From: Shigella phage vB_SdyM_006
Direction: 5' to 3' (one strand)
DNA: 64,000 nt
Sequence record: MK295204
Shown: positions 44,855 through 58,359 of the stretch, piece after piece
How positions within the stretch are numbered: the first letter of the stretch is position 1
How the letters are laid out: every line of letters starts with the position of its first letter
Notes under the pieces: generated by a model
Seen by the model: only the letters and a program-made list of their open reading frames with translations
What the model was told of the DNA's origin: nothing
Databases searched by the model: none
Program-made: the position numbers and the translations under genes

Positions 44855-45049
44855 TTATTTTACCTCAATGAGTTCACAATCGTATAAACAACTACACAGT
44901 TCACAAAAAGAATAAGCCGATGCATATGAATCAGTGTCTATCCAAAACCCAAGATTATCAATAGCACCTTTACGAACTTCATAAGCAAGTTGATAATCAA
45001 CTGTTTCAAATCCAATTTTCTTTTCTTCGCACCATACTATATATTTCAT
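44855..45049 (-). CDS. hypothetical small protein (tandem paralogue 2)
   Basis: 64 aa; paralogue of 44657..44854. Confidence 0.5.
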   Translation of the reverse strand: MKYIVWCEEKKIGFETVDYQLAYEVRKGAIDNLGFWIDTDSYASAYSFCELCSCLYDCELIEVK

Positions 45050-45894
45050 GAGTATTCCTTGTCATAATAAGAATCTGGAGTAAAAATATTTAACATATTT
45101 GTAGAATTATCAATAGTAATAATATTTTCCTGTTCAACTTCAGGTGTATAATATTTTAAAAACTCTTCTTTAACGTATTTTACTGGATCACTTTTATAAT
45201 CGTCAGTAGAAATATCAAATAATTCAATTGTATACGTATCAAGCCATTTTTCAGAACATGTTAATCGTCCACATAATAATCCATCATAAACGATAGCATA
45301 TTCAATATGGCCCCATTTATATGAGCTATCAGCGTCGTGTCTGATTAGATAAAACTTAATATCAGAATTCTCACAATCATCACTAATATTGTCACGAACA
45401 TCGTATTCATTGAGCTCGGTCAATTCACTTAAAGCATTAATAAACAGGTTTTTATATTGAGGGCCAGTTACTAACTTATCTTCTGTTAGTTCTTTCTCAA
45501 TAAATTCTTTTAAAGTTAAAACTGGCAATTCATACTTAGGAAATAATGCAGTTTCAGTAATAGTGCCGATATTCAATTCGGCCAATTTCTTAATAACAGA
45601 ATCTTCAGCTTTATCAGAATCAGTCCAAATATGAAGAACTTTAAAATTATGATTATTCCAAATTTTTTGTGGGTCAACATCAATCACATCTTGGGTTTTA
45701 GACAAAAACATTAAAAGGTAATCAGAATCATTCCACCCTACTGGGTTTTCGTATTTTTGAATGACTAGATATTGGAAATCAGTCATTAATGCATTATATC
45801 TTTCTTTAGAAGCTAAAGAAGTAGAATCCATAGATGAAGAAAAAGCTTCAATAACACTAGCTGGGTTTTTAATTAACATTTTGAATAGTCCCAT
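45046..45894 (-). CDS. hypothetical protein
   Basis: 282-aa ORF in track, no recognised motif. Confidence 0.5.
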   Translation of the reverse strand: MGLFKMLIKNPASVIEAFSSSMDSTSLASKERYNALMTDFQYLVIQKYENPVGWNDSDYLLMFLSKTQDVIDVDPQKIWNNHNFKVLHIWTDSDKAEDSVIKKLAELNIGTITETALFPKYELPVLTLKEFIEKELTEDKLVTGPQYKNLFINALSELTELNEYDVRDNISDDCENSDIKFYLIRHDADSSYKWGHIEYAIVYDGLLCGRLTCSEKWLDTYTIELFDISTDDYKSDPVKYVKEEFLKYYTPEVEQENIITIDNSTNMLNIFTPDSYYDKEYS

Positions 45895-46115
45895 GTGATT
45901 TTAACACGATCATGATATATTACTCTATCATGGCTTTTTGAAACTGTAAATCCTTTTTCTTTAAGAATTTCAATCAACGCATCTTTAATGGCTTCATTTT
46001 CTGGAAGCTTTGCGTAATGCTCTGTACTATCATGCAAAGCCAGTTGGCAAATATCATTTAACACAATAGCTAAATTGTGTTCAACAACAGTATTTTTAAG
46101 ATCAGATAAATTCAT
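45873..46115 (-). CDS. hypothetical protein
   Basis: ORF in track. Confidence 0.4.
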   Translation of the reverse strand: MNLSDLKNTVVEHNLAIVLNDICQLALHDSTEHYAKLPENEAIKDALIEILKEKGFTVSKSHDRVIYHDRVKITWDYSKC

Positions 46116-46229: not shown

Positions 46230-46271
46230 ATACATATTGAAACGAAACATGAAAAACAAATGGAGTATATT

Positions 46272-46616
46272 ATGAATAAGACACAAATCAATGCAGTTTT
46301 AAAAACTTTAGGTTATGGTAATTTACGTTATTCTAATGGTAAAACATACCGCAGAGGAAACTCTATGGTTAAAGGTTTTCATTTAATTTCTACTGGTGCA
46401 TGTATGGTGACTTCACCAGAAACACAAAAATTTAGTGATCTTGTTAATGAGTTAAAACAACATTTTGAATTACAATCATATTATGACAATTGCATGGCAA
46501 TATTTGTGACAGGAAAATTAAAAATTGTTGTTTGTTTAACAAATTTTAATACATACGGTGGCTTAAACCCAGATTATAAAACATGGTTTGCATCTGTTAA
46601 TATTGAAAAGTTATAA
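46272..46616 (+). CDS. hypothetical protein
   Basis: Start set at the cassette ATG (MNKTQ...) 8 nt after GGAG; lone plus-strand gene among minus-strand genes. Confidence 0.5.
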   Translation: MNKTQINAVLKTLGYGNLRYSNGKTYRRGNSMVKGFHLISTGACMVTSPETQKFSDLVNELKQHFELQSYYDNCMAIFVTGKLKIVVCLTNFNTYGGLNPDYKTWFASVNIEKL

Positions 46617-46621
46617 AACAA

Positions 46622-46650
46622 AAATGGGACCGTAAGGTCCCATTTTCAAA
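46622..46650. terminator. bidirectional terminator (ATGGGACC-GTAA-GGTCCCAT)
   Basis: 8-bp stem; T-runs on both strands; sits between convergent genes. Confidence 0.6.
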
Positions 46651-47560
46651 TTAATCTTGTTACAGCTCCTATTCCTCCTCCAGCACCACCTAATCTTGTT
46701 AAATTTCTTAATGAAGAGCTTAAAGAGTTTTCTTCTGAAATTGTATCTATGGCACCAATTGCTTTTGATTCTAACCAATCAAGAGCTGCTTGCCTACCGA
46801 CAGAACCTACCTGCATCACCCTGTATGCGAATGTAACATCAAAAACAGCAATAGTATTATTATCTTCATATGAAAGTTCAGGAGCACCTACCGACATAGG
46901 AACACACCCTGTGAACATGGCAACAGTATGTGGAAGACCGTTTCTATTGTGTAAATTAACCTGGATATCGGCTTCAACATCTATAGGTAAAGCACGTAGT
47001 CCTGTGATTGGGTCTTCAACTGAATTCACCCAATCTTGCATAGCTCGATAATTACTTGCTTCTGAATCCATCCTAAACGAAATTATCAACGGGTCATATT
47101 CTCTAGATAGAACTTTTATATTAGGTGAATTATGATTTTTATCCATCTCATAAGATAGTCTGTTTTCTGGTAATTTGACAGAATAAACCATTAACCCAGA
47201 TGTTGGAAATGCCATATTAAAGAAATCTAATAGATAAGTCCCTACTTCAAATTCTCCTAATAATGATTGAACCACACGATTAGACATGGCTCCTAAAAGA
47301 TATTTAGAAACACCAGATTTTCTCACTAGTTTTTGAGTACCAGCAACAACTAGACTTGATACTGCACTAGTTACATCATTTTGAGATATTCCAAGAAAAT
47401 CTGTATCTATAGGTAAATTGTTAAACAAAAAACCACCAAAATTATCTAAAAGCTCATTAGTTTTTGATGATGGGGCTGTGGCAAAAACAACACTAAACAT
47501 GTTTGTTCTTTGGAAGTCAAGATTGACAGCTTGGCTTTTAAATTCTTCTAATGTATACAT
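46646..47560 (-). CDS. 54: baseplate tail tube initiator gp54
   Basis: 304 aa (T4 320 aa), synteny 29-48-54. Confidence 0.65.
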   Translation of the reverse strand: MYTLEEFKSQAVNLDFQRTNMFSVVFATAPSSKTNELLDNFGGFLFNNLPIDTDFLGISQNDVTSAVSSLVVAGTQKLVRKSGVSKYLLGAMSNRVVQSLLGEFEVGTYLLDFFNMAFPTSGLMVYSVKLPENRLSYEMDKNHNSPNIKVLSREYDPLIISFRMDSEASNYRAMQDWVNSVEDPITGLRALPIDVEADIQVNLHNRNGLPHTVAMFTGCVPMSVGAPELSYEDNNTIAVFDVTFAYRVMQVGSVGRQAALDWLESKAIGAIDTISEENSLSSSLRNLTRLGGAGGGIGAVTRLI

Positions 47561-48603
47561 TATAACAATCCTTCTGCAAACAAAGTTCCACGATTTAGTG
47601 TTAAAATCTCTCTAAACGTTATTTCAAGAGTAAACGTACTTGGTAAATTTGGGGCCATGGCTAGACCATTAAAATGTCCATTAGGAGATTTGTCAAATCT
47701 TATACTAGAAATCTGGGCTGGTCCAAATATATCAGTTCGGCCATCATAAGAAGATGTTTTACCAAAATTTCGTATAACCCATATTGTTGGGTTACTTACA
47801 ACAAGAACATTAGTTAAAAAACTTGTAATATTTTCCAATATTGTTCCTGAAGTATCAGCACCGTCTGGGGTATTAGGATTTATTAATGTTGTTTTATACC
47901 ATTCATCAATAGCGGCTTTAATTTCTTTAGCAAATTTAGACACACCTGTTTCACCATAAGAGAAATAACTAAATATTTCGTAAATATACAAAATTTGTAT
48001 AAGGTCTTGTGGAGTCCTTGGTGTTAAATGCCAGGTAAAAACTTTAGTTCTATTATCCGCTCCAGCATACATAGATCTAGCTGTAGTATAAATTTGTTCG
48101 CCTTTATCAGCCATAATTCCTTGTGTAATCGAATCTAATGCACCAAAAACAGCCGTTGACGCAACATTACTCAAAGCACCTGTTACGCTACCACCACCTT
48201 TAGTTAATAAAGAATCTCCAACATCATTAAATCTATGAGAAATGTTATCTACGTCAGATTGACTTCTTGGCATTAATATATTAGCAACAGATTCTTGACT
48301 AAAGGTGGTTGTCCCACCTTTTTTAGAAAAATCAATATTAATTGCGTCAACGGCATTTTGTTTTTTTCTAAAGTCTCTTAATGAGCCTGTATCGCGTGCA
48401 TTATAATTATATGCAGTAAATAACAGCCCGTTTTTATATAAGTCATTAAGTCTAAAATCTAAAGCATTATCTGTACCAGAGGCTCGTTCTGCTGGAAACT
48501 GAGCCACTAATGTTTTGGTTTGAGTATTTGTTGGATTAGAAGACCCAGCAGATATTTTTGTTCCTATTTTCTCTACTTCTTCATCCAGAACTTTTATTTT
48601 CAT
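47560..48603 (-). CDS. 48: baseplate tail tube junction protein gp48
   Basis: 347 aa (T4 364 aa), synteny. Confidence 0.65.
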   Translation of the reverse strand: MKIKVLDEEVEKIGTKISAGSSNPTNTQTKTLVAQFPAERASGTDNALDFRLNDLYKNGLLFTAYNYNARDTGSLRDFRKKQNAVDAINIDFSKKGGTTTFSQESVANILMPRSQSDVDNISHRFNDVGDSLLTKGGGSVTGALSNVASTAVFGALDSITQGIMADKGEQIYTTARSMYAGADNRTKVFTWHLTPRTPQDLIQILYIYEIFSYFSYGETGVSKFAKEIKAAIDEWYKTTLINPNTPDGADTSGTILENITSFLTNVLVVSNPTIWVIRNFGKTSSYDGRTDIFGPAQISSIRFDKSPNGHFNGLAMAPNLPSTFTLEITFREILTLNRGTLFAEGLL

Positions 48604-50324
48604 TAATTAACCTCTAAAGCTTTATACATGCCAGGAGCAGCATATCCTGTTACAGGATTTTGTTGAATAACAGTCTTATTATTAGCTACATTGTTTTGGA
48701 CATTAGCTGTATTTGTGGTCGTTTGAGATGATGTTTCTGTTGTTTCTATATTATTGATATTTTCTGCACTTGTGTAAGCTTGAGATTCTTTAGGATCTTC
48801 AGGTTTAATAGATGGGATCTGCTCTAATAACAAATCTGATCTATCTAATGCATCTATTCCTAATTTATAATAATCCGAATCGACTTCAACATCTTGGTTA
48901 TCAACAATAGAACTTGCAAGTTCTCTTAATTCGCCAGCTATTTTAGTTAAAGCCTCTGGGTTATTTCTATGAGCTTCAGATAAGGCCATTAATTGATTTA
49001 ATCTAGCTTCAGTTTTTACTTGTTCTTCTATATCGCCCATTTCTGGTGCAGATTCATCTTGCTTTTTAGCTAAAGCAATAGCCCTATCAGCATCTTCTCT
49101 ACTTATAACATTATTTTTTACATAAGTGTTTGCAGCTTCTTCTATAGACCCACCTGTAAATCTTGCTCTAGCTTTTATCATTGATAAATAGCCTTCATCA
49201 TCACTTTTGGCGGTATTTCTAATGTCGTTACCACGAACTTTAGCCATTAACTTAAGTTCATCTTCGTTAGGCATATAACCTGTATTTTTATTATATGCTT
49301 CTATAGTTGCAACTTCTAATTCGTCAGCCCAGTCGTCCTGCCCTATAGCTCGTAATAATGAAGATAACATTTTTCCTAATGCGTACTGTAAGCCTTGTAA
49401 AAGATTTTCTAAAACGTTTACCATACCTTTTACAATGGCTAATGCTAAATTACCAAAATCGCCTTCTTTCCAGAATTTTTTGACATCTTCTAGTGTAGCA
49501 AATATAGAACGCAATATCGGGGCTAGTGGTCCAAGTTTTTCTTCAAAATCGTCAAAGGCTTCATTAAATAATTTACCCCAATATTTAAAATGAATCATTA
49601 TAAGGTCCATAGCTAATACTATAGCCAACATTATTGCTGCCCATTTGGCAGCAAACAACGCCGCTGTTACAGTGTATTTAAACAACATATCAGCTATTCT
49701 GTTTGTCATCCCATAAGCAGATTTGAACCCAGTTTTAACATTTTTATTTAAAGAATTTAAAACTTTAGATAAAGAGTCTTTTTCTTTATTGTCATCTTTA
49801 GGTTCTTTCTTTTTCTTCTCTTCTTCTGGGACCGGTGCTCTATCGACGTCATCTCTTCTAATAACAAGGTCTTTAATAGCAGATTCTAGTTTATTATCTT
49901 CAACCGGAACAGGGAGTTTAGAAAAAGCTTCTTCGGTCTCAGAAACTTCTGGTTCTACAATTTCCTGTTTTTCTGGTTTAAATTTTTCTTTTAACATATT
50001 ACTTAATTTAGATATGTTCGAAGAAAAAGAATTTGATAATTTAGAATTACTTGTTGCTAAGTCTTTTAAGTTATTATTTGTTTCTTGACTAGAATCTATT
50101 AATAACTCAACACCAGCTTGAACATCTTCTACAGAAGAAACAACTTTAGAAGTCCCAGATTCTACGGTTTCTGCAACTAGCTCAATACCATTTGATAAGT
50201 CATCTAAAGAATCAGAAACATTAAGCATAGAGTTAGCAACATTTTCTTGGCCTTTAGATTCTTTAGATATTTTATTTTTTTCTTCTATTACTTTATTTCT
50301 TCTAAACGAATCAGGTGTTTTCAT
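48603..50324 (-). CDS. 29: baseplate hub / tail length determinant (tape measure) gp29
   Basis: 573 aa (T4 590 aa), low-complexity coiled-coil-rich, synteny. Confidence 0.7.
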   Translation of the reverse strand: MKTPDSFRRNKVIEEKNKISKESKGQENVANSMLNVSDSLDDLSNGIELVAETVESGTSKVVSSVEDVQAGVELLIDSSQETNNNLKDLATSNSKLSNSFSSNISKLSNMLKEKFKPEKQEIVEPEVSETEEAFSKLPVPVEDNKLESAIKDLVIRRDDVDRAPVPEEEKKKKEPKDDNKEKDSLSKVLNSLNKNVKTGFKSAYGMTNRIADMLFKYTVTAALFAAKWAAIMLAIVLAMDLIMIHFKYWGKLFNEAFDDFEEKLGPLAPILRSIFATLEDVKKFWKEGDFGNLALAIVKGMVNVLENLLQGLQYALGKMLSSLLRAIGQDDWADELEVATIEAYNKNTGYMPNEDELKLMAKVRGNDIRNTAKSDDEGYLSMIKARARFTGGSIEEAANTYVKNNVISREDADRAIALAKKQDESAPEMGDIEEQVKTEARLNQLMALSEAHRNNPEALTKIAGELRELASSIVDNQDVEVDSDYYKLGIDALDRSDLLLEQIPSIKPEDPKESQAYTSAENINNIETTETSSQTTTNTANVQNNVANNKTVIQQNPVTGYAAPGMYKALEVN

Positions 50325-50829
50325 TTTGGAATAATCCTAATATGTCGTCGCCATAAACAACTTTGTCTTCAAGGTTTATAGCAATACTTTTTCCAAGTTC
50401 ATCAGCCCATTTATACACAAAAGCTGGCATACTACCAAAATCAACTTTTTCTAAACATAATGTTTCTAAAAGTTCTTTAGCTGAAGTGAATCTTTCTCCT
50501 GGTAATATGTCTCTAAATTTATATTCTTTTCCTTGATAAGTAAATTTAGGTGTTGGTAATAGATAAACATCATTTATTGAGTAAGTTTTATCTTTATATA
50601 CGAATGTGTCTGTACATTTACCATTAAATTCGGCTAAATGAAGCAAGACTAAATGAGCTTCTTTAAATGACAAATTTTTATCTACAGAATCAAGAACTAT
50701 TTTTAAAGTATCTTCTGGAGATTTAGCTTCTTTGAATTTGTCATAATAATTAAGTCCGAGTTTAGGAATTGTTAATTCTTTTCCATTTATATTAATCTTC
50801 TTCAGTGGAAGAATTATCTTTAATTTCAT
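50311..50829 (-). CDS. 28: baseplate hub distal subunit gp28
   Basis: 172 aa (T4 177 aa), synteny. Confidence 0.65.
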   Translation of the reverse strand: MKLKIILPLKKININGKELTIPKLGLNYYDKFKEAKSPEDTLKIVLDSVDKNLSFKEAHLVLLHLAEFNGKCTDTFVYKDKTYSINDVYLLPTPKFTYQGKEYKFRDILPGERFTSAKELLETLCLEKVDFGSMPAFVYKWADELGKSIAINLEDKVVYGDDILGLFQNENT

Positions 50830-51937
50830 TTTTTACCTTAATATGATCTACTGGTTTAAGAATTTTACTATTACTGAACATGTAAATATGTGTAAAACTC
50901 TGATTATTAGACATTTCATGTATAACAGAATCTACATAAAAAGTACTTAAGAACTGATTCTTAGGGTCATAGAATTCTAATTTATTTCCAGGCGTTATAT
51001 CAAAATCCCCATAAGTTGTACATTTTGCATAGGAATCATATTGAGCCATTGTATTTAATTTAGTCGCTTCTTCATACCCATTTCTAAATAACTGATCTGA
51101 ATACCCGCCATTTCTCGAAACTAAAATAGAATTTTCGCCATTTCCATTCACTATCCTAGTACAAGTTTTATCAATCATACTAAAAGAATATATAGTCGAG
51201 TTTTCGTATGGGTTTCTATTATGAGAATTTGTTTTTGTTATCCATTCAAAATCATATGCAAGTGGATATTCAAGTTGATCTGCAAATTGTCCAACCATTA
51301 ACGGTTCTCCGACTACCATTTCCTTAACTTTTGAATTAATGATTTGTTGGAAATCTGTGACGTGGATCCCATTAAAATCATCCCAAACCAAAGCAAACAT
51401 ATCAGATGCAACAGAAATACCAGTATCTCTAACATAGTCCATATATTCCTTAATTCCAAGAACCCATGGAACTAAAGGAACGTGAATATTCGTGCCAGTG
51501 ATCGTAGGTTTCAATAAAGGGGTGTCGGTATATAAAACATTTATCATTTCTTCTATAGTCTCTGTGGCGTTCTTGAAGAACACTCGACTAAATTTAAGAT
51601 TTTTATTTTTATACGGTGGAATCAATTGCATTGTAATAATGTTATCGCCTTTTTGATCAACTGATACAGAAGAATATTTTACGGCATAAATTCTATTTTT
51701 AGTTATTGATGTATTTGCATTACCTACAGAAATTTGGATTATTTGGTCTCCATCTAATTTAGTATGCATATTTTTATGATCGTAAATTTGTAACATCCCT
51801 TCGTTGGTCCCGTATAAATCATCTCTAATTGTCAACGAAGTAAAAGTTCCTGCTAATTCTATAAATCGGTTTTCTAACCAAGCATCATAACTTTGGTATA
51901 ATTTTATCGATATATTAGGATAACCCACCTTTTGCAT
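50792..51937 (-). CDS. 27: baseplate hub subunit gp27
   Basis: 381 aa (T4 391 aa), synteny. Confidence 0.7.
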   Translation of the reverse strand: MQKVGYPNISIKLYQSYDAWLENRFIELAGTFTSLTIRDDLYGTNEGMLQIYDHKNMHTKLDGDQIIQISVGNANTSITKNRIYAVKYSSVSVDQKGDNIITMQLIPPYKNKNLKFSRVFFKNATETIEEMINVLYTDTPLLKPTITGTNIHVPLVPWVLGIKEYMDYVRDTGISVASDMFALVWDDFNGIHVTDFQQIINSKVKEMVVGEPLMVGQFADQLEYPLAYDFEWITKTNSHNRNPYENSTIYSFSMIDKTCTRIVNGNGENSILVSRNGGYSDQLFRNGYEEATKLNTMAQYDSYAKCTTYGDFDITPGNKLEFYDPKNQFLSTFYVDSVIHEMSNNQSFTHIYMFSNSKILKPVDHIKVKNEIKDNSSTEED

Positions 51938-52688
51938 GTTTTTTGTCCTTTAAATCTTTTTCTATTAATGCTAATGTGATTGTCCTGTTCATTGGGGTCA
52001 TTTTCTCTATATCGTTTAGAGAATAGCCTTGTTTAACCATGATATGATTAATTTTATAAAATGCTATAATTTCCTCTTCAGACAAAATTATTTTAAACAG
52101 GTCTAAAATGTTTCTATATACCATTTCGTGAGTATCACAACAACTAAATTTAACAGGGATATAAATTGGATATATCTCTTTTATTATTTGTTCAAAATCA
52201 TCTAGAGAAATAACAGACATAACAAGATTTTTATTCTCTTGGTCTAAATCTTCCCATATATAAGAACCATTATTGTCTTCAATTTTATATATACAGCTGT
52301 CAAATAATTTTTTTATATCAGTTGTCATTATATCTGTAAAATCAAAATGAATTTTTATTCCTGAAGTTTCTAGAACAGGTCTTTTAAGTCTTTTCAATTC
52401 TAAGTTTAAAAAGGTCTTCTTTTCTTTACCACATTTAGGGCATTTAAAACGTATAGGAAGAACAGATTTACCAATAGATGAAGTAAACCAAATTATAAAT
52501 GCATAAGCTCTATATATTTTTGGCATATAAGGAAATGACTCTTCTAATAATTCATCTAGTATTTGTTCTGCTTCTTCTTGATTTTTTTCTATTTCACTCC
52601 GTACAAATAATAATTGTAAATAATCATCATTAGTAAACTGACGAATTCTGTATGTTTTTTCTGGTGTGACTATTCTTATTATGTTCAT
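51915..52688 (-). CDS. 51: baseplate hub assembly protein gp51
   Basis: 257 aa (T4 249 aa), synteny, divergent from gene 26. Confidence 0.6.
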   Translation of the reverse strand: MNIIRIVTPEKTYRIRQFTNDDYLQLLFVRSEIEKNQEEAEQILDELLEESFPYMPKIYRAYAFIIWFTSSIGKSVLPIRFKCPKCGKEKKTFLNLELKRLKRPVLETSGIKIHFDFTDIMTTDIKKLFDSCIYKIEDNNGSYIWEDLDQENKNLVMSVISLDDFEQIIKEIYPIYIPVKFSCCDTHEMVYRNILDLFKIILSEEEIIAFYKINHIMVKQGYSLNDIEKMTPMNRTITLALIEKDLKDKKHAKGGLS

Positions 52689-52704
52689 AGTGTCTCCTCT
52701 TATT

Positions 52705-52712
52705 TATTTATA
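52705..52712 (-). promoter_or_regulatory. T4-type late promoter TATAAATA on minus strand (gene 51-27-28-29-48-54)
   Basis: Exact TATAAATA on minus strand, overlapping the divergent plus-strand late promoter. Confidence 0.55.
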
Positions 52713-52716
52713 AATA
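52709..52716 (+). promoter_or_regulatory. T4-type late promoter TATAAATA (gene 26-25)
   Basis: Exact TATAAATA on plus strand 18 nt upstream of gene 26 ATG. Confidence 0.55.
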
Positions 52717-52733
52717 GATAAAAAGGAGACACT

Positions 52734-53318
52734 ATGTTTGAAATAACATGTAACGACATAACATACAACGCTAGATATTTCACTCTAGACGAATACGAGG
52801 ACGTTCTTAATAAAATAACTGATAATAATATTAAAGACGCCATTAGTGGGCTCTTAATTGATTGTATAGACTCCTACGATACAAACTTGCCTAAACACTA
52901 TGCAGAATGTATTTTTCTTAAATTATGGGCTCACAGTTTAGGTGGAGTAACTAAAGAACTAAATGATATTTTTGTTAATTTTAATTATATAGAAACACCT
53001 AAAGAAAAAGGATTTATTTACAAATTAGATGGATTGAGTCTCAAAATGAGATATCCAAAATTATTTGAAGACTCTGATAAATTAGAAATGGTCATAAATT
53101 GTATTGACTCAGTATTATTAGAAGACCAAACAGAAATTAAAGCTTCAGAGCTTTCTTCAGATGATTTAAACGTTTTATATTCATACTTGACGAAAGACGT
53201 AATTTTTTCGTTAAGAGACGAATTACTTAGACCTAAACCGTATATCGCTTTTCCTGTTGATGACGAAATTAAAACAATAGAAGGGTTTAAAAATTTATTA
53301 GAGGTGATAGATGAGTAA
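52734..53318 (+). CDS. 26: baseplate hub subunit gp26
   Basis: 194 aa (T4 208 aa), synteny. Confidence 0.6.
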   Translation: MFEITCNDITYNARYFTLDEYEDVLNKITDNNIKDAISGLLIDCIDSYDTNLPKHYAECIFLKLWAHSLGGVTKELNDIFVNFNYIETPKEKGFIYKLDGLSLKMRYPKLFEDSDKLEMVINCIDSVLLEDQTEIKASELSSDDLNVLYSYLTKDVIFSLRDELLRPKPYIAFPVDDEIKTIEGFKNLLEVIDE

Positions 53319-53697
53319 AATGAATGTTTTATATTCTGACTTAGACCCTAAAATGGAAAAAGGCTGGGATAAAGACCTGCATAAAGTCGTAGGAGATAGG
53401 GCTGTCAAAAATTCTATTCTAGGAATAATTAGTACTAGGAAAGGGTCTAGACCCTTTGACCCAGAATTTGGGTGTAATATAACAGACCAATTATTCGAAA
53501 ATATGAGTCCATTAATAGAAGACACTATAGAGCGATCTATAGTTTCGGCTATTAAAAATTATGAGCCAAGAGTACAAAGATTAAAAGTTTCTGTTACTGC
53601 ATTGTATGATTCAAATTCTATAGTTGTAGATATTATTTTTTCTATTGTAGATAATCCAGACACATTAGAACAGATAAAAGTTCAATTATCAAAATAG
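53311..53697 (+). CDS. 25: baseplate wedge protein gp25
   Basis: 128 aa (T4 132 aa); gpW/gp25-like pattern (ILGIISTRKGSRPFDPEFGC). Confidence 0.75.
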   Translation: MSKMNVLYSDLDPKMEKGWDKDLHKVVGDRAVKNSILGIISTRKGSRPFDPEFGCNITDQLFENMSPLIEDTIERSIVSAIKNYEPRVQRLKVSVTALYDSNSIVVDIIFSIVDNPDTLEQIKVQLSK

Positions 53698-53704
53698 TTT
53701 ACTA

Positions 53705-53871
53705 TAGTTATTAATTTATTACTTAATAGTTATATATAATATATAAAGAACTTAATAAAATAATAAAAATTCTGGAGCTGCGCTCCAGATTTCTTTAGAA
53801 ATAGTAACATATAGTTATTAATTTATTACTTAATAGTTATATAGAATATACTATACTTTTAATAAATTAAT
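53705..53871. repeat. copy B (inverted) of the ~166-bp element; hairpin CTGGAGC-TGC-GCTCCAG at 53771-53787
   Basis: Reverse complement identical to 8491-8656 apart from the 3-nt hairpin loop. Confidence 0.9.
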
Positions 53872-53936
53872 TTACTAGAGTTACTATTAATAGGCTATTA
53901 TAATAAAATGGTTATAATGAATCATTTGGAGGAACT

Positions 53937-54347
53937 ATGAATTTAGAAGAATTACAAACAATGTTATCAGAAGATTTAAGAATTGATCCATTAAAACTTC
54001 AATATGAAGCTGCAAATAATCCAACATTATATGGAAAATGGTTAAAAATTTATTCTGATATAAAGAAAGGAATTATTTCTTATGAAGCTAATAAGAAAAA
54101 ACTTTTAAAACAAAGATTAGACCATTATACTGGACGTGGTGATGAAGTGTGTATGGACTTATATGAAAAATCAGAACTTAAAACTGTTATTGCAGCTGAC
54201 CCAGAAATTTTGAAAACACAAACATCTGTGGAATATAGAACATTATTATTGGATTTTGCATCAAAAGCTTTAGATGCTATTAAAGCCCGTGGATTTAGTA
54301 TTAAGCACATTCTAGAATGTAGACAATTTGAGGCAGGAACAAAATGA
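53937..54347 (+). CDS. uvsY: recombination mediator UvsY
   Basis: Strong match to remembered T4 UvsY (KLQYEAANN, YSGRGD/YTGRGD, LLDF.S.ALDAIK.RGF.IKHI). Confidence 0.9.
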   Translation: MNLEELQTMLSEDLRIDPLKLQYEAANNPTLYGKWLKIYSDIKKGIISYEANKKKLLKQRLDHYTGRGDEVCMDLYEKSELKTVIAADPEILKTQTSVEYRTLLLDFASKALDAIKARGFSIKHILECRQFEAGTK

Positions 54348-54715
54348 CAAGCATTGATGTATTGAATCAACAGATTGATTTAGCTTCTTCAATTGAAGGA
54401 ATTACTGACAAAACTCCTGTAATAAAATCAATGAAACACTATTTAAGAGATATAAATAATATTAAGCCAATGGCTGAAGGTATACTTAAAAGTAATAAAT
54501 TACCTGATTATACATTATCTCAAATCATTGAAGAACTAAAAGGATGGGCTATGGACCATATTTGTGTAGTTTGTAAAAAGCCTATTGATGAGAGTTTAGT
54601 TATCTATAACGATAATAATGAACCTGTTCATCCGGGGCCTTGTTATAATTTTGCTAAAGAACAACCTGTAACAGAATCAGGTCATTCTTTAAATGAAGTA
54701 GAATTATTAATGTAA
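54344..54715 (+). CDS. hypothetical protein (uvsY-adjacent; possible Zn-ribbon C..C...H..C)
   Basis: ORF overlapping the uvsY stop; HICVVCKKPID...HPGPC. Confidence 0.5.
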   Translation: MTSIDVLNQQIDLASSIEGITDKTPVIKSMKHYLRDINNIKPMAEGILKSNKLPDYTLSQIIEELKGWAMDHICVVCKKPIDESLVIYNDNNEPVHPGPCYNFAKEQPVTESGHSLNEVELLM

Positions 54716-54720
54716 AAAAT

Positions 54721-54747
54721 AAAAGACGAGGGTTACTCGTCTTTTTC
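54721..54747. terminator. bidirectional terminator (AGACGAG-GGTTA-CTCGTCT)
   Basis: Hairpin with A-run upstream and T-run downstream, between convergent genes. Confidence 0.6.
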
Positions 54748-54954
54748 TGTTTCTAAATCTTCTAATTCTAATCTCTTGCCTTCTAAGGCATCTCTTATAG
54801 AGATATCATCAGTATCTTTAATTTCTAATTCTTTTATACGTTTAGAATAATATTTTTCTAATTCGTCTAAACCAGCCAATGTTTGACATTCTCTTATTTT
54901 GTTCATAAAAGTTTCGACACTAGCTTCGATTAAAATATCTTTAAATTTTAACAT
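54733..54954 (-). CDS. UvsW.1-like small acidic protein
   Basis: 73 aa, directly downstream of uvsW on the same strand. Confidence 0.55.
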   Translation of the reverse strand: MLKFKDILIEASVETFMNKIRECQTLAGLDELEKYYSKRIKELEIKDTDDISIRDALEGKRLELEDLETEKDE

Positions 54955-56453
54955 AATTTTACCTCTCTCATAGAATAATCAAATTGTTCACTTGCATACC
55001 TTTCTATACGTTCTAAAGCGTGTTTTAATGCATAATTTAAATGTACATATTTCTTTTTAGAATTTTTAGATTTAGGTTTTACACCCATGTCATCTACAAT
55101 GTCCCAAAGAACACCTTCAGCTTTAGAACCATGTAATCTAAGAACACGTCCAATAGATTGTAATACGGTTACTTTTGATTTAATTGGGTGTGCAAATATA
55201 ACATGGTGTAAATTTTTTATAGATACACCAGCACTGAAAACACCATAAGAAGCGACTACAACCATCCCTGAGCGTTTTTCTGCTAAGGCCTTTATAATAT
55301 CTCTATCTTTGTCTTTAACTTCTCCTGCGATAAAGAAGACGTTTTCTTCGCCATATATAGCCTTACATGCCTCGTATAGATCTTTACCATGGGCTATTCT
55401 ATCAAACATAACAAACACATTTTCATTTTTAGATGCTAATTTACATGCAAGTTTAGCTATCCATTCATTACGCTGTTTAGCTTTAATAATGATTTTAATT
55501 TCATCTTGATACGAAAATCCTTTAACTTTTTCTGTAAACGCATCCGGGTATCTTAAAAACAAAGTATTAATTTTAAGTTTAGACACTTGTCCTGCTTCCA
55601 TTAGTTCAGCCGTGGACACTGGTTTGTATATATCTCCAAATAATCCGATATATTGCATTACATTAGCTTTGCCATCTTTAACGGTTCCTGTTAGCCCGAA
55701 TTTAAATTTACAGTTGTTTAATCCGTTAATAATAGTACTAATACTTTTACCAGTCGCTAAATGACACTCATCATTCATTAACATTCCAAATTGACTAAAC
55801 CATTCTTTTGGTTGCTTAATAGCTGTCTGCCAGGTTGATACGTAAACCAAAGCATCAGAATCTTTAGCTGTACCGCCTTTTATTCCTAATAACATTTCTT
55901 TAGAAAATAGTCTATAGTCGACTAAGTCATCAATCATTTGTTTAACAAGAATAGTTGTTGGAACTAAAATTAAAACTTTACCTTGAAAGTTTTCTATATA
56001 ATAACGTGCTAAGAGCGCCTGGATCAACGATTTACCAGCTGATGTAGGTAAATTCAATAAAGCTCTATTTTGTGTTAAGCCTTTAACTACAGAATCTTTT
56101 TGATACCAATGAGGCGTTATCTTAGATGACCCAGAATATATTTCTTTAGAATCTATCCAATCAGAAACTTCTTTTTCAGTAATATCGCCATTATCATATA
56201 TTTTAGGATCCGTTTCTACAGTATAGTCCATATTAGAAGCAAACTTTTTAACATAGTTCACAAGCCCGTATGGTAATAAGCCGTCATACCCTAAAATTCT
56301 AATCTTGCCGTCCCATTGACCATATTTAAATTTTGGATTAAATTGGTACCCAGGAGTTTCGAAAGAGAAATAATCTCTTAATTCAAAGAACACAGAATCT
56401 TCACACTCGATTTTTACACTACTATAATCGTAAAACTTTAATTTAATATCCAT
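54948..56453 (-). CDS. uvsW: UvsW DNA/RNA-DNA helicase
   Basis: Extensive match to remembered T4 UvsW (MDIK..F.D.S.V.I.CE, helicase motif I NLPTSAGKSLIQALLARYY, DECHLATGKS, VLQSIGRVLR); start set at MDIKLKF (56453) with RBS AAGGTGA. Confidence 0.9.
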   Translation of the reverse strand: MDIKLKFYDYSSVKIECEDSVFFELRDYFSFETPGYQFNPKFKYGQWDGKIRILGYDGLLPYGLVNYVKKFASNMDYTVETDPKIYDNGDITEKEVSDWIDSKEIYSGSSKITPHWYQKDSVVKGLTQNRALLNLPTSAGKSLIQALLARYYIENFQGKVLILVPTTILVKQMIDDLVDYRLFSKEMLLGIKGGTAKDSDALVYVSTWQTAIKQPKEWFSQFGMLMNDECHLATGKSISTIINGLNNCKFKFGLTGTVKDGKANVMQYIGLFGDIYKPVSTAELMEAGQVSKLKINTLFLRYPDAFTEKVKGFSYQDEIKIIIKAKQRNEWIAKLACKLASKNENVFVMFDRIAHGKDLYEACKAIYGEENVFFIAGEVKDKDRDIIKALAEKRSGMVVVASYGVFSAGVSIKNLHHVIFAHPIKSKVTVLQSIGRVLRLHGSKAEGVLWDIVDDMGVKPKSKNSKKKYVHLNYALKHALERIERYASEQFDYSMREVKLC

Positions 56454-56466
56454 TACTTTCACCTTG

Positions 56467-56474
56467 TTATAAAT
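56467..56474 (+). promoter_or_regulatory. T4-type late promoter TATAAATA (inh-hoc)
   Basis: Exact TATAAATA 35 nt upstream of the 56509 ATG. Confidence 0.5.
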
Positions 56475-56480
56475 ACATAT

Positions 56481-56488
56481 ATATTTAT
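56481..56488 (-). promoter_or_regulatory. T4-type late promoter TATAAATA on minus strand (uvsW)
   Basis: Exact TATAAATA on minus strand 28 nt upstream of uvsW ATG. Confidence 0.5.
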
Positions 56489-56508
56489 ACAAAGCCTAAG
56501 AGGACATT

Positions 56509-57222
56509 ATGAAAATTGATCAACAATATATTGATTCTTTAACTGAAGAATATACTTCAGGCGAAATTGATAGAAAAACAGCTAAACAAAAATTAACAGA
56601 TTATGCTAAAGAATCTTTTAATTTTGATTTAAACAAACAAAAAAGTTTTGAGAATATGATTGTTCAGCTTAAAGAAATGATCGATAATTATGTAGAACCC
56701 GAATTAGAAGAACAAGATGGAATTTCTATTAAAGATCTAATTACCGCAGCTGACCAATTAGATGGTAAAAGTGTTTTTAATGATGCCAATGAAGAAGCAT
56801 TAGAATTACTTTCAGATGTTTCTTATGATGGAATTAAACCAGATTTGGTAATTAAAACACCCCAACCACAAATTACTAAAGAAGAAATTATTGATAAACC
56901 AGAAAAATCTTTAATAAGTAAGAATTTAGAAGTTAAAGAAGAAATTAAATCCCAAGAATATATGCCGGAATCGGCAAAATATGTTCTTCCTGATGGGTTC
57001 TCTCCAACTATTACATTAATTGGTAAAACTCCTGGATATTATACTCTTCCATGGTGGATTTATCAATGGATTTTAGAAAATGAAGATTGGAAAGATAGGC
57101 CAGAAGAATGCCCCGAGTATTCAGCTATTAATATTTTAAAATCATTGATTTACTTTATTAATAGAGATGGACAGGTCAAAATTAGAGAAACAAGAAATTC
57201 AAGATTTTATACCCTAAAATAA
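56509..57222 (+). CDS. hypothetical protein, possibly Inh-like (prohead protease inhibitor) by position
   Basis: 237 aa between uvsW and hoc, as inh is in T4; no sequence-level confirmation. Confidence 0.35.
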   Translation: MKIDQQYIDSLTEEYTSGEIDRKTAKQKLTDYAKESFNFDLNKQKSFENMIVQLKEMIDNYVEPELEEQDGISIKDLITAADQLDGKSVFNDANEEALELLSDVSYDGIKPDLVIKTPQPQITKEEIIDKPEKSLISKNLEVKEEIKSQEYMPESAKYVLPDGFSPTITLIGKTPGYYTLPWWIYQWILENEDWKDRPEECPEYSAINILKSLIYFINRDGQVKIRETRNSRFYTLK

Positions 57223-57231
57223 GGATTATAT

Positions 57232-58056
57232 ATGAGTATAGTACTAAAATTAACACCAGAGAACCCTAAAATTACTATAGGAGAATCTCAAGAATTCACC
57301 ATGACTACAGAGAATCAAACAGATGAGACTCTAAAATATGAATGGTATATTAATGAAGACATATATGAAGCCACAAATAAAAATATGACATATACACCTG
57401 ATAAATCAGGTGAATTTATTATAAAATGTAAAGTATCTTCTTTAGGATTAGAAGGGGAAACCGTTTTAGGCGAAGAATCCACCACTTTAACTGTAAATCT
57501 TAAAACTATAACCGATTTGACGACAAATATTACAGGCCCAAAAGAAGCAGAATATGGCGAAGAATTTGAACTTGTTGTAAATGCTGAAACTACAGCAGAA
57601 TCTCCTAAATATACATATAAATGGTCTAGTGGTGAAACTACAAAAAAAATAAAGGTAATTGAATCTGAAGAAGGTGAAAAAACTTTTACATGTACAGTAA
57701 CATGTAAATCAACTAATTATGAACCCGCTACTTCAACATCAGAACATAAAGTTTCTATATCAAAACCCGTAGTTCCTGAACCAGATCCGTCTTGTGAATC
57801 ATGTAGATATATTCATCCTTTAGACCATAGAGAATCAGCATATTTATGGGTAGGATACTGGGTACTAGAAGAAATAGAAAAAGCCGTGGAAGAAGGAATT
57901 GATTGGAAGAAGCCAGATGATACTGATCTAAAATATAAATGTGATTTGAAGACCCTCGCATTTATGTTAGAAAAATACCCTAATGTAGATGTACAAGAAT
58001 CAAGAAATGGATATATCTTATCTAAAGACGATATTGAAAATGGGGTTATTTACTAA
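57232..58056 (+). CDS. hoc: Hoc-like outer capsid protein (two Ig-like domains + capsid-binding C-terminus)
   Basis: C-terminus matches remembered T4 Hoc (HPL.HR.SAY.W.G.WV..EI.K..EEG.DWK..D.D.KY, VDVQESRNGYI); N-terminal repeated Ig-like units. Confidence 0.8.
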   Translation: MSIVLKLTPENPKITIGESQEFTMTTENQTDETLKYEWYINEDIYEATNKNMTYTPDKSGEFIIKCKVSSLGLEGETVLGEESTTLTVNLKTITDLTTNITGPKEAEYGEEFELVVNAETTAESPKYTYKWSSGETTKKIKVIESEEGEKTFTCTVTCKSTNYEPATSTSEHKVSISKPVVPEPDPSCESCRYIHPLDHRESAYLWVGYWVLEEIEKAVEEGIDWKKPDDTDLKYKCDLKTLAFMLEKYPNVDVQESRNGYILSKDDIENGVIY

Positions 58057-58063
58057 ACAAAAA

Positions 58064-58090
58064 AGGGACCAATTGGTCCCTTTTTATTTT
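58064..58090. terminator. bidirectional terminator (AGGGACC-AATT-GGTCCCT)
   Basis: Hairpin with A6 upstream and T-rich tract downstream. Confidence 0.6.
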
Positions 58091-58359
58091 TATTTTCTAA
58101 AGATCTTACCAAATTTGCTAATCACAAAATTCTCACCAACTTTAATATCGATACGAATAGAAACATGTCCTATTGTATCAGTATTCAACATATCACTTAA
58201 AGACATTGAAGAATGTCTTTCGAAATCTTCAACAATATTAAACCCATCATTATCACAATGAGTGTCAATAAATTCTTTAAGCTTTACTGAGCTTCCTTCA
58301 GATAAAATAGGGTCATTATAGAAACGACAAGATGATTCAAATAATTTTAAAGTAACCAT
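58090..58359 (-). CDS. hypothetical protein
   Basis: Start set at internal ATG 58357-58359 (MVTLKLF...) with strong RBS AAAGGAGA. Confidence 0.45.
   Translation of the reverse strand: MVTLKLFESSCRFYNDPILSEGSSVKLKEFIDTHCDNDGFNIVEDFERHSSMSLSDMLNTDTIGHVSIRIDIKVGENFVISKFGKIFRK

What the first reader, a model, noticed from the sequence alone, without database searches (positions are those of the whole stretch)
46646..58056. Block 54-48-29-28-27-51-26-25-uvsY-uvsW-inh-hoc is inverted relative to T4 gene order
As I recall the T4 map, gene 24 is followed by rnlB, hoc, inh, uvsW, uvsY, 25, 26, 51, 27, 28, 29, 48, 54, alt, 30. Here rnlB and a small-ORF cluster are followed by exactly the reverse order, with strands flipped, before alt and gene 30. 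The breakpoints coincide with bidirectional terminator hairpins of the same family at 46622-46650 and 58064-58090 (GGGACC...GGTCCC).
Basis: partly seen in the sequence, partly recalled or inferred. Interest (0 to 1): 0.5.

Follow-up and report, generated by a model that had tools for sequence, protein, structure and literature searches.

The report
Known inverted baseplate-hoc block, T4-like phage
This Proteus phage carries an 11.4-kb block of baseplate, repair and head-decoration genes in the opposite direction to phage T4, but the flip is an old trait of its whole phage lineage that was published in 2017, so it is ordinary.

Summary
The window is 99.2% identical to Proteus phage phiP4-3 (Bragavirus). 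Between gene 24/rnlB on the left and alt/gene 30 on the right, the block 54-48-29-28-27-51-26-25-uvsY-uvsW-inh-hoc (46646-58056) lies in reverse order with flipped strands compared with T4. Its internal order is intact. The flip is not private to this genome. Pm5461, PM2, SJ_PmiM, Morganella phages MP1 and Rgz1, and Providencia phages PSTCR6 and PSTRCR_121 all share it. These phages form one clade with 100/100 bootstrap support. About 90 other T4-like loci keep the T4 order, including a Proteus-infecting Gelderlandvirus. Oliveira et al. 2017 (PMC5384007) already described this >10 kb inversion for MP1 and Pm5461. The two GGGACC...GGTCCC hairpins are real and stable, and both are conserved in Pm5461. 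They are the ordinary terminators that follow gene 54 and hoc in nearly all T4-like phages examined, whichever way the block points. One phage with the T4 order has identical stems at both ends, so the hairpins are not scars of the inversion. The block has its own promoters and terminators, which explains why flipping it was tolerated. Whether the palindromic terminators caused the event cannot be settled here.

The parts
39501..40751 (+). Gene 24 (capsid vertex). This is the left anchor and lies outside the inverted block.
   Evidence: 49% identity to T4 gp24 over 427 aa, E=6e-129. Annotated as capsid vertex protein in phiP4-3.
41816..42820 (-). rnlB (RNA ligase 2). Left flank, in the same orientation as in T4.
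   Evidence: 43% identity to T4 RnlB, E=5e-81.
43447..43650 (-). Homologue of T4 gene 24.3. It is the last left-flank gene that has a T4 counterpart.
   Evidence: tblastn with T4 24.3 matches 43465-43605, E=3e-6.
43625..46115 (-). Lineage-specific cluster of small ORFs lying between the 24.3 homologue and the block. It is a variable region.
   Evidence: No T4 protein matches here. The ORFs match only PHROG families of unknown function.
46260..46616 (+). ORF118, a gene found only in Bragavirus. It converges on gene 54 at the left junction.
   Evidence: Matches phrog_13016, of unknown function. No Pfam match. Found only in phiP4-3 and Pm5461 loci.
46621..46646 (.). Left hairpin AAAATGGGACC-GTAA-GGTCCCATTTT. 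It is the terminator of gene 54.
   Evidence: Motif match. Flagged as terminator-like on the minus strand. Folding energy is -17.3 kcal/mol on the plus strand and -17.8 kcal/mol on the minus strand, z = -5.8 and -4.8. It corresponds in position and stem to the gene-54 terminator of the T4 group, ATGGGGACC-GAAA-GGTCCCCAT.
46646..47560 (-). Gene 54 (baseplate tail tube initiator). This is one end of the inverted block.
   Evidence: 68% identity to T4 gp54, E=5e-132.
47560..48603 (-). Gene 48 (baseplate tail tube cap).
   Evidence: 61% identity to T4 gp48, E=3e-142.
48603..50324 (-). [quoted passage not shown]
   Evidence: 34% identity to T4 gp29, E=2e-49.
50311..50829 (-). Gene 28 (distal baseplate hub subunit).
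   Evidence: 39% identity to T4 gp28, E=4e-34.
50792..51937 (-). Gene 27 (baseplate hub).
   Evidence: 55% identity to T4 gp27, E=7e-147.
51915..52688 (-). Gene 51 (baseplate hub assembly protein).
   Evidence: 34% identity to T4 gp51, E=1e-46. Matches Pfam PF12322.
52705..52716 (.). Two overlapping, back-to-back late-promoter motifs (TATAAATA on each strand). They would drive 51-27-28-29-48-54 leftward and 26-25 rightward.
   Evidence: Motif matches at 52705-52712(-) and 52709-52716(+). Pm5461 has divergent promoters annotated at the same place.
52734..53318 (+). Gene 26 (baseplate hub).
   Evidence: 27% identity to T4 gp26, E=3e-24. Matches Pfam PF12322.
53311..53697 (+). Gene 25 (baseplate wedge subunit).
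   Evidence: 59% identity to T4 gp25, E=1e-54.
53771..53789 (.). Internal bidirectional terminator-like hairpin between gene 25 and uvsY.
   Evidence: Found by the terminator scan. Its loop, TGC, is the reverse complement of the GCA loop in phiP4-3 and Pm5461.
53937..54347 (+). uvsY (recombination mediator).
   Evidence: 60% identity to T4 UvsY, E=6e-49.
54344..54715 (+). ORF whose C-terminal part is homologous to T4 uvsY.-2.
   Evidence: 61% identity to T4 uvsY.-2 over 54 aa. Matches Pfam DUF2685.
54721..54745 (.). Internal bidirectional terminator-like hairpin between the convergent uvsY and uvsW transcription units.
   Evidence: Found by the terminator scan.
54733..56453 (-). uvsW.1 and uvsW (RNA-DNA and DNA-DNA helicase).
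   Evidence: 61% identity to T4 UvsW over 504 aa (E=0) and 64% over the UvsW.1 part.
56468..56489 (.). A second pair of back-to-back late-promoter motifs, between uvsW and inh.
   Evidence: TATAAATA at 56468-56475(+) and 56482-56489(-). Pm5461 has promoters annotated at the same place.
56509..57222 (+). inh (inhibitor of the prohead protease).
   Evidence: 42% identity to T4 Inh, E=1e-44.
57232..58056 (+). hoc (head outer capsid decoration protein). This is the other end of the inverted block.
   Evidence: 36% identity to T4 Hoc, E=8e-46.
58060..58085 (.). Right hairpin AAAAAGGGACC-AATT-GGTCCCTTTTT. It is a bidirectional terminator between hoc and the 89-aa ORF.
   Evidence: Motif match. Flagged as terminator-like on both strands. 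Folding energy is -16.6 kcal/mol on the plus strand and -17.0 kcal/mol on the minus strand. The stem is conserved in Pm5461, where the loop is GTAT.
58090..58359 (-). Lineage-specific 89-aa ORF in the position that alt.-3 occupies in T4. It is not detectably homologous to alt.-3.
   Evidence: Matches phrog_25116. BLASTP finds no alignment to T4 alt.-3, phiR1-RT g199 or the ORF at the same position in ABTNLPp2.
58420..60483 (-). alt (RNA polymerase ADP-ribosyltransferase). This is the right anchor, in the same orientation as in T4.
   Evidence: 30% identity to T4 Alt over 734 aligned positions, E=1e-84.
61317..62789 (-). Gene 30 (DNA ligase). Right anchor.
   Evidence: 45% identity to T4 gp30, E=2e-112.

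Best explanation
This is a fixed, lineage-defining inversion of an 11.4-kb gene block in the T4-like phages that infect Proteus, Morganella and Providencia (Bragavirus, Gualtarvirus and PSTCR6-like phages). It most likely arose once in their common ancestor, from the T4 arrangement. Shown here: the block holds the same genes, in the same internal order and with the same relative strands, as in T4. Only its direction relative to gene 24/rnlB and alt/gene 30 differs. Also shown: the block carries its own transcription signals. Two internal pairs of back-to-back late-promoter motifs would drive four transcription units. The two outermost units, ending at gene 54 and at hoc, point outward and each ends in a strong hairpin terminator. 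Inferred: because no operon is cut and each end keeps its own terminator, the flip was nearly neutral and could become fixed. The two GGGACC hairpins are the ordinary terminators of gene 54 and hoc, not relics of the event. How the event happened is also only inferred. I put about 0.3 on recombination or strand switching between the two similar palindromic terminators. Palindromes provide inverted homology to each other, and the alternative product, deletion of the block, would be lethal because the block holds baseplate genes that are essential in T4 (established T4 genetics, from my own knowledge). The confidence given here applies to what the feature is (a known, fixed, clade-wide inversion of a module with its own transcription signals), not to the mechanism of origin.
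For: The gene order in the window is the reverse of the T4 order. Direct inspection shows the same inverted order in phiP4-3, Pm5461, PSTCR6, MP1, Rgz1 and PSTRCR_121. Collinear megablast matches that run across the hoc-alt junction show it for SJ_PmiM and PM2. Of 67 IMG/VR loci centred on gene 54 and 29 centred on inh, only phiP4-3, Pm5461 and MP1 are inverted. Among the others, Tevenvirinae, Aeromonas and Acinetobacter phages keep gene 54 on the gene 30 side (with alt alongside in the first two) or hoc next to 24.3/rnlB, and a set of 174-180 kb RB43-like loci has a further arrangement. A neighbour-joining tree of UvsW, gp25, gp27, gp48 and gp54 (1761 columns, 56 taxa) separates the inverted phages from the rest in 100 of 100 bootstraps. 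Proteus phage ABTNLPp2, a Gelderlandvirus, has the T4 order, so the trait follows phage lineage rather than host. The inversion was published for MP1 and Pm5461 (PMC5384007). Late-promoter motifs lie at 52705-52716 and 56468-56489, and the terminal hairpins are stable. GC skew follows the coding strand across the block with no anomaly. Three results bear on the proposed mechanism. One phage with the T4 order (L076/L055) has identical stems, AAAGGGACC, at both block ends, so a suitable substrate exists in uninverted genomes. Terminator loops flip to their exact reverse complement between close relatives in 10 of 27 loop-allele pairs on identical stems, so these palindromes do undergo inversion-type events. 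Both terminal hairpins are conserved in Pm5461.
Against: The mechanism of origin cannot be tested on present sequences. The longest exact run shared by the two hairpin regions is 9 nt (AAACAAAAA), plus the two 6-nt stem arms (read directly). Gualtarvirus, which shares the inversion, has two different stems, GGACC and GGGAACC. PSTCR6 shows no comparable hairpin at its left junction. Terminator stems in this genome come from a small repertoire: about 33 hairpins, six of them with a GGACC core. By my rough estimate, two given terminators would share a core type about 10% of the time by chance. The tree uses only genes from inside the block, so it does not show independently that the flanks have the same history. 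No transcript data were available, so the promoters and terminators are motif-level predictions only.
Confidence: 0.86

Rival explanations
1. The block was not flipped in place. It was replaced by module exchange: an ancestor acquired a homologous 54-to-hoc module from another T4-like phage by recombination in the variable flanking regions, and the module happened to be inserted the other way round.
For: Both junctions lie in variable regions filled with lineage-specific small ORFs (43625-46616 and 58090-58359). T4-like phages are known to exchange modules at such sites (my own knowledge). A set of 174-180 kb RB43-like loci shows that these genes have been rearranged more than once.
Against: Insertion in reverse would need two crossovers in inverted homology, which is no simpler than an inversion in place. 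In one search the block genes and the flanking genes give the same ordering of relatives. For example, gp24 identity to the window is 94% in Pm5461, 81% in MP1 and 71% in PSTCR6, and gp54 identity is 95%, 80% and 77%. No donor lineage with a closer block is seen among about 90 loci.
Confidence: 0.07
2. The polarity is the reverse of what I propose: the arrangement seen here is ancestral and the T4 arrangement is derived.
For: The midpoint-rooted tree places the inverted clade on a deep branch. ICTV places Bragavirus and Gualtarvirus outside Tevenvirinae.
Against: The T4 orientation occurs on both sides of the inverted clade in the tree. It is also found in Aeromonas (L022-L024) and Acinetobacter-type (L081-L090) phages outside Tevenvirinae. 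A derived T4 order would therefore need several independent identical inversions.
Confidence: 0.05
3. The block is a programmed invertible segment, a DNA switch like the Mu G or P1 C segment, flipped by a site-specific recombinase acting on the terminal hairpins.
For: Two similar palindromic sequences sit exactly at the block ends.
Against: No recombinase lies in or beside the block. Every block ORF is a T4 homologue, and the junction ORFs match no recombinase family. No inverted repeat beyond chance AT-rich matches flanks the block. All nine sequenced members (this window and eight named relatives) have the same orientation. The same hairpins flank the block in phages that never inverted it.
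Confidence: 0.01
4. The inversion is an assembly error, or an effect of the arbitrary orientation chosen for the deposited record.
For: The phiP4-3 record is deposited as the reverse complement of the T4 convention.
Against: The inversion is defined relative to flanking genes on the same contig (24/rnlB and alt/30), so record orientation is irrelevant. At least six independently sequenced genomes from different laboratories show the same junctions.
Confidence: 0.01

Closest known systems
The >10 kb chromosomal inversion of baseplate and head outer capsid genes reported for Morganella phage vB_MmoM_MP1 and Proteus phage vB_PmiM_Pm5461 (Oliveira et al. 2017, Sci Rep 7:46157, PMC5384007)
   Same: It is the same block (54 through hoc), in the same orientation relative to gene 24 and alt/30, and in the same phage lineage. 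Pm5461 is collinear with the window across both junctions at about 85% DNA identity.
   Different: Nothing substantive differs. The window is a further Bragavirus member close to phiP4-3. The passages of the paper I retrieved do not mention the terminal hairpins, the promoter layout, the Providencia phages or the polarity of the event; I did not read the full text.
The phage T4 region from gene 24 to gene 30 (NC_000866)
   Same: The gene content, internal order and relative strands of the 54-to-hoc block are the same. A terminator hairpin follows gene 54 (GGGGACC-GAAA-GGTCC) and another follows hoc.
   Different: The block points the other way. T4 has segE inside the block, and alt.-3, alt.-2 and alt.-1 on the alt flank. 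The window instead has a 3-kb cluster of small ORFs plus ORF118 on the left and an unrelated 89-aa ORF on the right.
Programmed invertible segments of phages (Mu G segment with Gin, P1 C segment with Cin)
   Same: A DNA segment bounded by similar sequences and found in the opposite orientation.
   Different: There is no invertase and no long inverted repeats. The orientation is fixed across the lineage. The segment holds baseplate genes that are essential in T4 (my own knowledge), not alternative tail-fibre ends.
Small inversions of hairpin loops between inverted-repeat stems, well known in chloroplast non-coding DNA (my own knowledge, not checked in the paper library)
   Same: Between close relatives, terminator loops here flip to their exact reverse complement while the stems stay identical.
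   Different: Here the flips occur in transcription terminators of T4-like phages. One literature search on four terms including the phrase 'loop inversion' found no description of this.

Membership tests
Baseplate-hoc block inversion of Morganellaceae T4-like phages (Oliveira et al. 2017) | A block of more than 10 kb containing baseplate hub, tail-tube and wedge genes plus hoc and inh | tested here: met
   The block spans 46646-58056 (11.4 kb). T4 homologues of 54, 48, 29, 28, 27, 51, 26, 25, uvsY, uvsW, inh and hoc all lie within it.
Baseplate-hoc block inversion of Morganellaceae T4-like phages (Oliveira et al. 2017) | The block is reversed relative to the flanking anchors (gene 24/rnlB on one side, alt/gene 30 on the other) when compared with T4 | tested here: met
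   In the window, 24(+) is followed by 54(-) and the block ends with hoc(+) before alt(-). In T4, 24(+) is followed by hoc(-) and the block ends with 54(+) before alt(-).
Baseplate-hoc block inversion of Morganellaceae T4-like phages (Oliveira et al. 2017) | The genome belongs to the clade containing Pm5461 and MP1 | tested here: met
   The window is 99.2% identical to phiP4-3 and about 85% to Pm5461. The inverted phages form a split with 100/100 bootstrap support.
Intrinsic (rho-independent) bidirectional terminator | A stable GC-rich stem-loop | tested here: met
   Both hairpins fold at -16.6 to -17.8 kcal/mol on either strand, z = -4.6 to -5.8.
Intrinsic (rho-independent) bidirectional terminator | A U-tract after the stem on both strands, with the hairpin between convergent genes | tested here: inconclusive
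   The right hairpin meets this on both strands. The left hairpin has TTTTTGTTTT on the minus strand but only TTTTC on the plus strand, and the scan flagged only its minus strand. Both hairpins lie between convergent ORFs.
Intrinsic (rho-independent) bidirectional terminator | Transcripts end at the hairpin | not testable with these tools
   No transcript data were available. Pm5461 has a terminator annotated at the hoc-side site, but from MFOLD prediction only.
Site-specific invertible DNA switch (Gin/Cin/Hin type) | A recombinase gene inside or next to the segment | tested here: not met
   All block ORFs are T4 homologues. The junction ORFs give no recombinase match in PHROGs or Pfam.
Site-specific invertible DNA switch (Gin/Cin/Hin type) | Specific inverted repeats of about 20-30 bp at the two ends | tested here: not met
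   The repeat finder gives only AT-rich matches of 70-86% complementarity, and none of them pairs the two junctions. The hairpins share only two 6-nt stem arms and a 9-nt A-rich run (read directly).
Site-specific invertible DNA switch (Gin/Cin/Hin type) | Both orientations occur among close relatives or within a population | tested here: not met
   All nine sequenced members (this window and eight named relatives) have the same orientation. Heterogeneity within a single population could not be tested.

The most novel reading that the evidence does not exclude
Palindromic transcription terminators may be the recombination substrates that reshape T4-like genomes. On this reading, the same process that repeatedly flips terminator loops between close relatives (10 of 27 loop-allele pairs on identical stems are exact reverse complements) occasionally acts between two similar terminators 11 kb apart. 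That produced the one viable product, inversion of the 54-to-hoc module, in the ancestor of Bragavirus and Gualtarvirus. It would explain why rearrangement breakpoints in these phages fall at the ends of transcription units.
Probability: 0.25. Interest if true: 0.4.

Novelty: already known. Interest (0 to 1): 0.13.

Why it matters
It matters little as a discovery. [quoted passage not shown] This check adds some modest refinements. The trait extends to Providencia phages and to every sequenced Bragavirus and Gualtarvirus examined. It maps to a single branch of the tree, with the T4 order ancestral. It follows phage lineage, not host. The block has its own promoters and terminators, which explains why flipping it was tolerated. 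The terminal hairpins are ordinary terminators, not scars. The one item that might deserve separate study is the recurrent flipping of terminator loops. It is direct evidence that these palindromes undergo inversion-type events in T4-like phages.

Tried and rejected
1. Longer inverted repeats flanking the block: none were found beyond chance AT-rich matches.
2. Homology between the 89-aa ORF at the right junction and T4 alt.-3, phiR1-RT g199 or the ORF at the same position in ABTNLPp2, which would have pinned the right breakpoint: BLASTP found no alignment.
3. Function of the junction ORFs: ORF118 and the 89-aa ORF match only PHROG families of unknown function and have no Pfam match.
4. GC or AT skew as a trace of a recent flip: skew simply follows the coding strand, so it is uninformative.
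5. Genome-wide uniqueness of the GGGACC stem: it occurs only at the two block ends in the phiP4-3 genome. However, terminator stems come from a small repertoire and six of about 33 have a GGACC core, so the coincidence is weak.
6. Whether matching hairpins at both ends are specific to inverted genomes: they are not. One phage with the T4 order has identical stems and several others differ by a single base.
It was replaced by a numpy distance and neighbour-joining bootstrap.
8. Literature searches for later descriptions of the inversion (Bragavirus, phiP4-3, MP1) found only Oliveira et al. 2017. One search on four terms including the phrase 'loop inversion' (with terminator, hairpin, bacteriophage) found nothing.
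9. gp26 and gp51 cross-match each other and looked like possible new paralogues. Both match Pfam PF12322, so the relationship is already recorded.

Full report
**Identity of the window.** A megablast of window 44000-61000 against GenBank phages matches Proteus phage phiP4-3 (NC_055737, Bragavirus, Straboviridae) at 99.2% identity over 100% of the query. SJ_PmiM matches at 93%, and Pm5461 and PM2 at about 85%. The window is therefore a close relative of phiP4-3. It is not the identical sequence: for example, the loop of the left hairpin is GTAA in the window and TTGT in phiP4-3.

**Check of the observation.** The ORF list, the phiP4-3 annotation and tblastn with 28 T4 proteins agree on the gene order.
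- Left flank: 24(+, 39501-40751), a DprA-like gene(-), rnlB(-, 41816-42820), a 24.3 homologue(-, 43465-43605), lineage-specific small ORFs(-, up to 46115) and ORF118(+, 46260-46616).
- Block: 54(-, 46646-47560), 48, 29, 28, 27 and 51(-), then 26, 25, uvsY and a uvsY.-2-like ORF(+), then uvsW.1 and uvsW(-), then inh and hoc(+, ending at 58056).
- Right flank: an 89-aa ORF(-), alt(-, 58420-60483) and gene 30(-, 61317-62789).

The T4 record reads 24(+) rnlB 24.2 24.3 hoc inh(-) segE uvsW(+) uvsY.-2 uvsY.-1 uvsY 25 26(-) 51 27 28 29 48 54(+) alt.-3 alt.-2 alt.-1 alt(-) alt.1 30(-). The block is reversed with all strands flipped, and both flanks keep the T4 orientation.

The hairpins exist. GGGACCGTAAGGTCCC lies at 46626-46641 and GGGACCAATTGGTCCC at 58065-58080. 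They are the only two matches to that pattern in the 64-kb window, against none expected from shuffles. Both fold at about -17 kcal/mol on either strand. The terminator scan flags the right hairpin on both strands and the left one only on the minus strand, where it serves gene 54.

**Distribution of the inversion.** The inverted order is seen directly in these phages:
- Pm5461
- Providencia phage PSTCR6
- Morganella phage MP1
- Morganella phage Rgz1
- Providencia phage PSTRCR_121

For SJ_PmiM and PM2 it follows from collinear matches that run across the hoc-alt junction.

The T4 order is seen in Yersinia phage phiR1-RT, Erwinia phage Cronus and Proteus phage ABTNLPp2, a Gelderlandvirus.

I fetched 67 IMG/VR loci centred on gene 54 and 29 centred on inh, and classified them by tblastn. 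Only the three contigs that are phiP4-3, Pm5461 and MP1 have gene 54 next to rnlB/24 and hoc next to alt. Phages of Tevenvirinae genera, Aeromonas phages (L022-L024) and Acinetobacter-type phages (L081-L090) keep gene 54 on the gene 30 side (with alt alongside in the first two groups), or hoc next to 24.3/rnlB/24. A set of 174-180 kb contigs that I take from memory to be RB43-like (L096-L103) shows a third arrangement.

A neighbour-joining tree of concatenated UvsW, gp25, gp27, gp48 and gp54 (56 distinct taxa, 1761 columns) separates the inverted phages from all others in 100 of 100 bootstraps. Lineages with the T4 order lie on both sides of them. The simplest reading is one inversion in the ancestor of this Proteus/Morganella/Providencia phage clade, starting from the T4 order. 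The trait follows phage lineage and not host, because a Proteus-infecting Gelderlandvirus is not inverted.

**Prior description.** Oliveira et al. 2017 (PMC5384007) reported this as the 'unique property' of MP1. [quoted passage not shown] They state that its biological meaning is unknown. Further searches found no other treatment. The finding is therefore already known.

**The hairpins.** I extracted the sequence downstream of gene 54 in the first 24 gp54-centred loci, 21 of which keep the T4 order, and the sequence downstream of hoc in 34 loci, counting both arrangements. A GC-rich hairpin with A and T tracts follows gene 54 in every locus. It also follows hoc in almost every locus. The exceptions include Cronus, where other genes follow hoc.
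- The GGGACC/GGTCCC stem is a common gene-54 terminator stem. It occurs in the T4 group as ATGGGGACC-GAAA-GGTCCCCAT, and also in STML-198, CGG4-1 and others.
- The left hairpin of the window is therefore the ordinary gene-54 terminator, which travelled with the block. The right hairpin sits where hoc's terminator always sits.
- In Pm5461 both hairpins are conserved, with changes only in the loops.
- In MP1 the two stems differ: AAGGACC-TTCG after gene 54 and GGGAACC-TTAC next to hoc.
- In PSTCR6 the right junction has GGGAGC-ATT-GCTCCC and I saw no comparable hairpin at the left junction.
- Across the phiP4-3 genome I counted about 33 terminator-like hairpins. They come from a small repertoire of stems: AAGGACC four times, AAGGAGAC five times, AAGGAACC three times, and so on. 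GGGACC occurs only at the two block ends, but six of the 33 share the GGACC core.
- Among about 20 T4-order genomes where both terminators could be read, one (L076/L055) has identical AAAGGGACC stems at both ends, and several others differ by a single base.

The 'same family' similarity is real but weak as evidence. It is not specific to genomes that carry the inversion. No longer inverted repeat flanks the block.

**Location of the breakpoints.** Relative to T4, the left breakpoint lies somewhere between the 24.3 homologue and gene 54 (43650-46646). That gap is filled by small ORFs with no T4 counterpart, plus the Bragavirus-only ORF118. The right breakpoint lies between hoc and alt (58056-58420). 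That gap holds an 89-aa ORF with no detectable similarity to T4 alt.-3 or to the ORFs at the same position in other phages. Both breakpoints fall in variable, gene-poor junction regions.

**Why the flip was tolerated (partly shown, partly inferred).** Exact late-promoter motifs (TATAAATA) lie back to back at 52705-52716, between genes 51 and 26, and at 56468-56489, between uvsW and inh. Pm5461 has promoters annotated at the same two places. Terminator-like hairpins lie at 53771-53789 and 54721-54745 inside the block and at both ends. The block therefore consists of outward-facing and internally convergent transcription units that carry their own signals. Turning it round cuts no operon and leaves a terminator between each end and its new neighbour. 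GC skew follows the coding strand throughout, with no anomaly. That the inversion is near-neutral is an inference, since no expression data were available.

**Origin of the event (inferred).** Two similar palindromic terminators are at once direct and inverted repeats of each other. Exchange in the inverted register flips the block. Exchange in the direct register deletes baseplate genes that are essential in T4 (my own knowledge), which would be lethal. Two results make this plausible. A T4-order phage with identical terminal palindromes exists. Terminator loops also flip to their exact reverse complement between close relatives far more often than chance: 10 of 27 loop-allele pairs on identical stems of at least 7 bp, where chance is about 1 in 255 per pair for a 4-nt loop. 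Two such flips occur in this window, at the left hairpin (GTAA here, TTAC in Pm5461) and at 53771-53789 (TGC here, GCA in phiP4-3 and Pm5461). The event is old, however. The present sequence identity is only a few bases, and Gualtarvirus and PSTCR6 do not show matching hairpins. I give this mechanism about 0.3.

**Rival explanations.**
- A programmed DNA switch is excluded. There is no recombinase, no specific inverted repeats, and the orientation is fixed in all nine sequenced members, meaning this window and eight named relatives.
- An assembly or record-orientation artefact is excluded, because both flanks lie on the same contig and several independent genomes agree.
- Reverse polarity, with the T4 order derived, would need repeated identical inversions.
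- Replacement of the module in reverse orientation cannot be fully excluded. It is no simpler than an inversion in place, and block genes and flanking genes order the relatives in the same way.

**Verdict.** The feature is an already published lineage trait, and interest is low.

Noticed in passing
window 46637-46640 and 53779-53781; loci L006-L104 downstream of gene 54 and hoc: Between closely related T4-like phages, the loops of palindromic terminators differ by exact reverse-complement flips while the stems stay identical. Examples are GTAA/TTAC, GAAA/TTTC, TTCG/CGAA, GCAA/TTGC and TGC/GCA. This holds for 10 of 27 loop-allele pairs on identical stems of at least 7 bp, far above chance. It suggests frequent strand switching or recombination within the palindromes. 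One literature search on four terms including the phrase 'loop inversion' found no description for phage terminators.
   Followed up: partly
L096-L103 (IMG/VR contigs of 174-180 kb, which I take from memory to be RB43-like): These loci show a third arrangement of the same genes: 30.2(+) and 30(+), then 27(-), then 28, (29), 48, 54, 51, 26 and 25, all on the plus strand. The baseplate hub module has therefore been rearranged independently in another lineage, apparently again at the boundaries of transcription units.
   Followed up: no
L076 and L055 (IMG/VR contig 2706795408, 170,336 bp; T4 order): The terminators after gene 54 and after hoc have identical stems, AAAGGGACC/GGTCCCTTT. Their loops, CGAA and TTCG in the respective gene senses, are the same when read on one strand, which gives an identical 22-nt palindrome at both ends of an uninverted block.
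   Followed up: partly
window 43625-46616: A roughly 3-kb lineage-specific cluster of small ORFs lies between the 24.3 homologue and the block. It includes tandem paralogues at 44657-44854 and 44855-45049, both matching phrog_21221. It ends with ORF118 (46260-46616, plus strand, phrog_13016), which is found only in Bragavirus and shares only 48% identity between this window (whose ORF118 is identical to phiP4-3's) and Pm5461.
   Followed up: partly
window 42821-43156 and 43166-43450: Two adjacent small ORFs cross-match each other's PHROG families (phrog_18468 and phrog_19888). They are probably a diverged tandem duplication just after rnlB, in the position of T4 gene 24.2.
   Followed up: no
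window 40808-41371 (minus strand): A DprA-like DNA recombination-mediator gene (phrog_768, E=9e-57) sits between gene 24 and rnlB. T4 has no such gene there, but several phages with the T4 order do (L035, L038, L041, L042, L044, L049, L054), so it is unrelated to the inversion.
   Followed up: partly
window 51915-53318: gp51 and gp26 both match Pfam PF12322 (T4_baseplate). They are transcribed divergently from overlapping late-promoter motifs at 52705-52716, so they are a head-to-head pair of paralogues. The relationship is already captured by Pfam.
   Followed up: yes
L081-L090 (Acinetobacter-type loci), just after gene 54: The best Alt-like match lies on the same strand as gene 54, immediately after it. 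In T4 it lies on the opposite strand. The orientation or identity of the alt-region gene therefore differs in this group.
   Followed up: no
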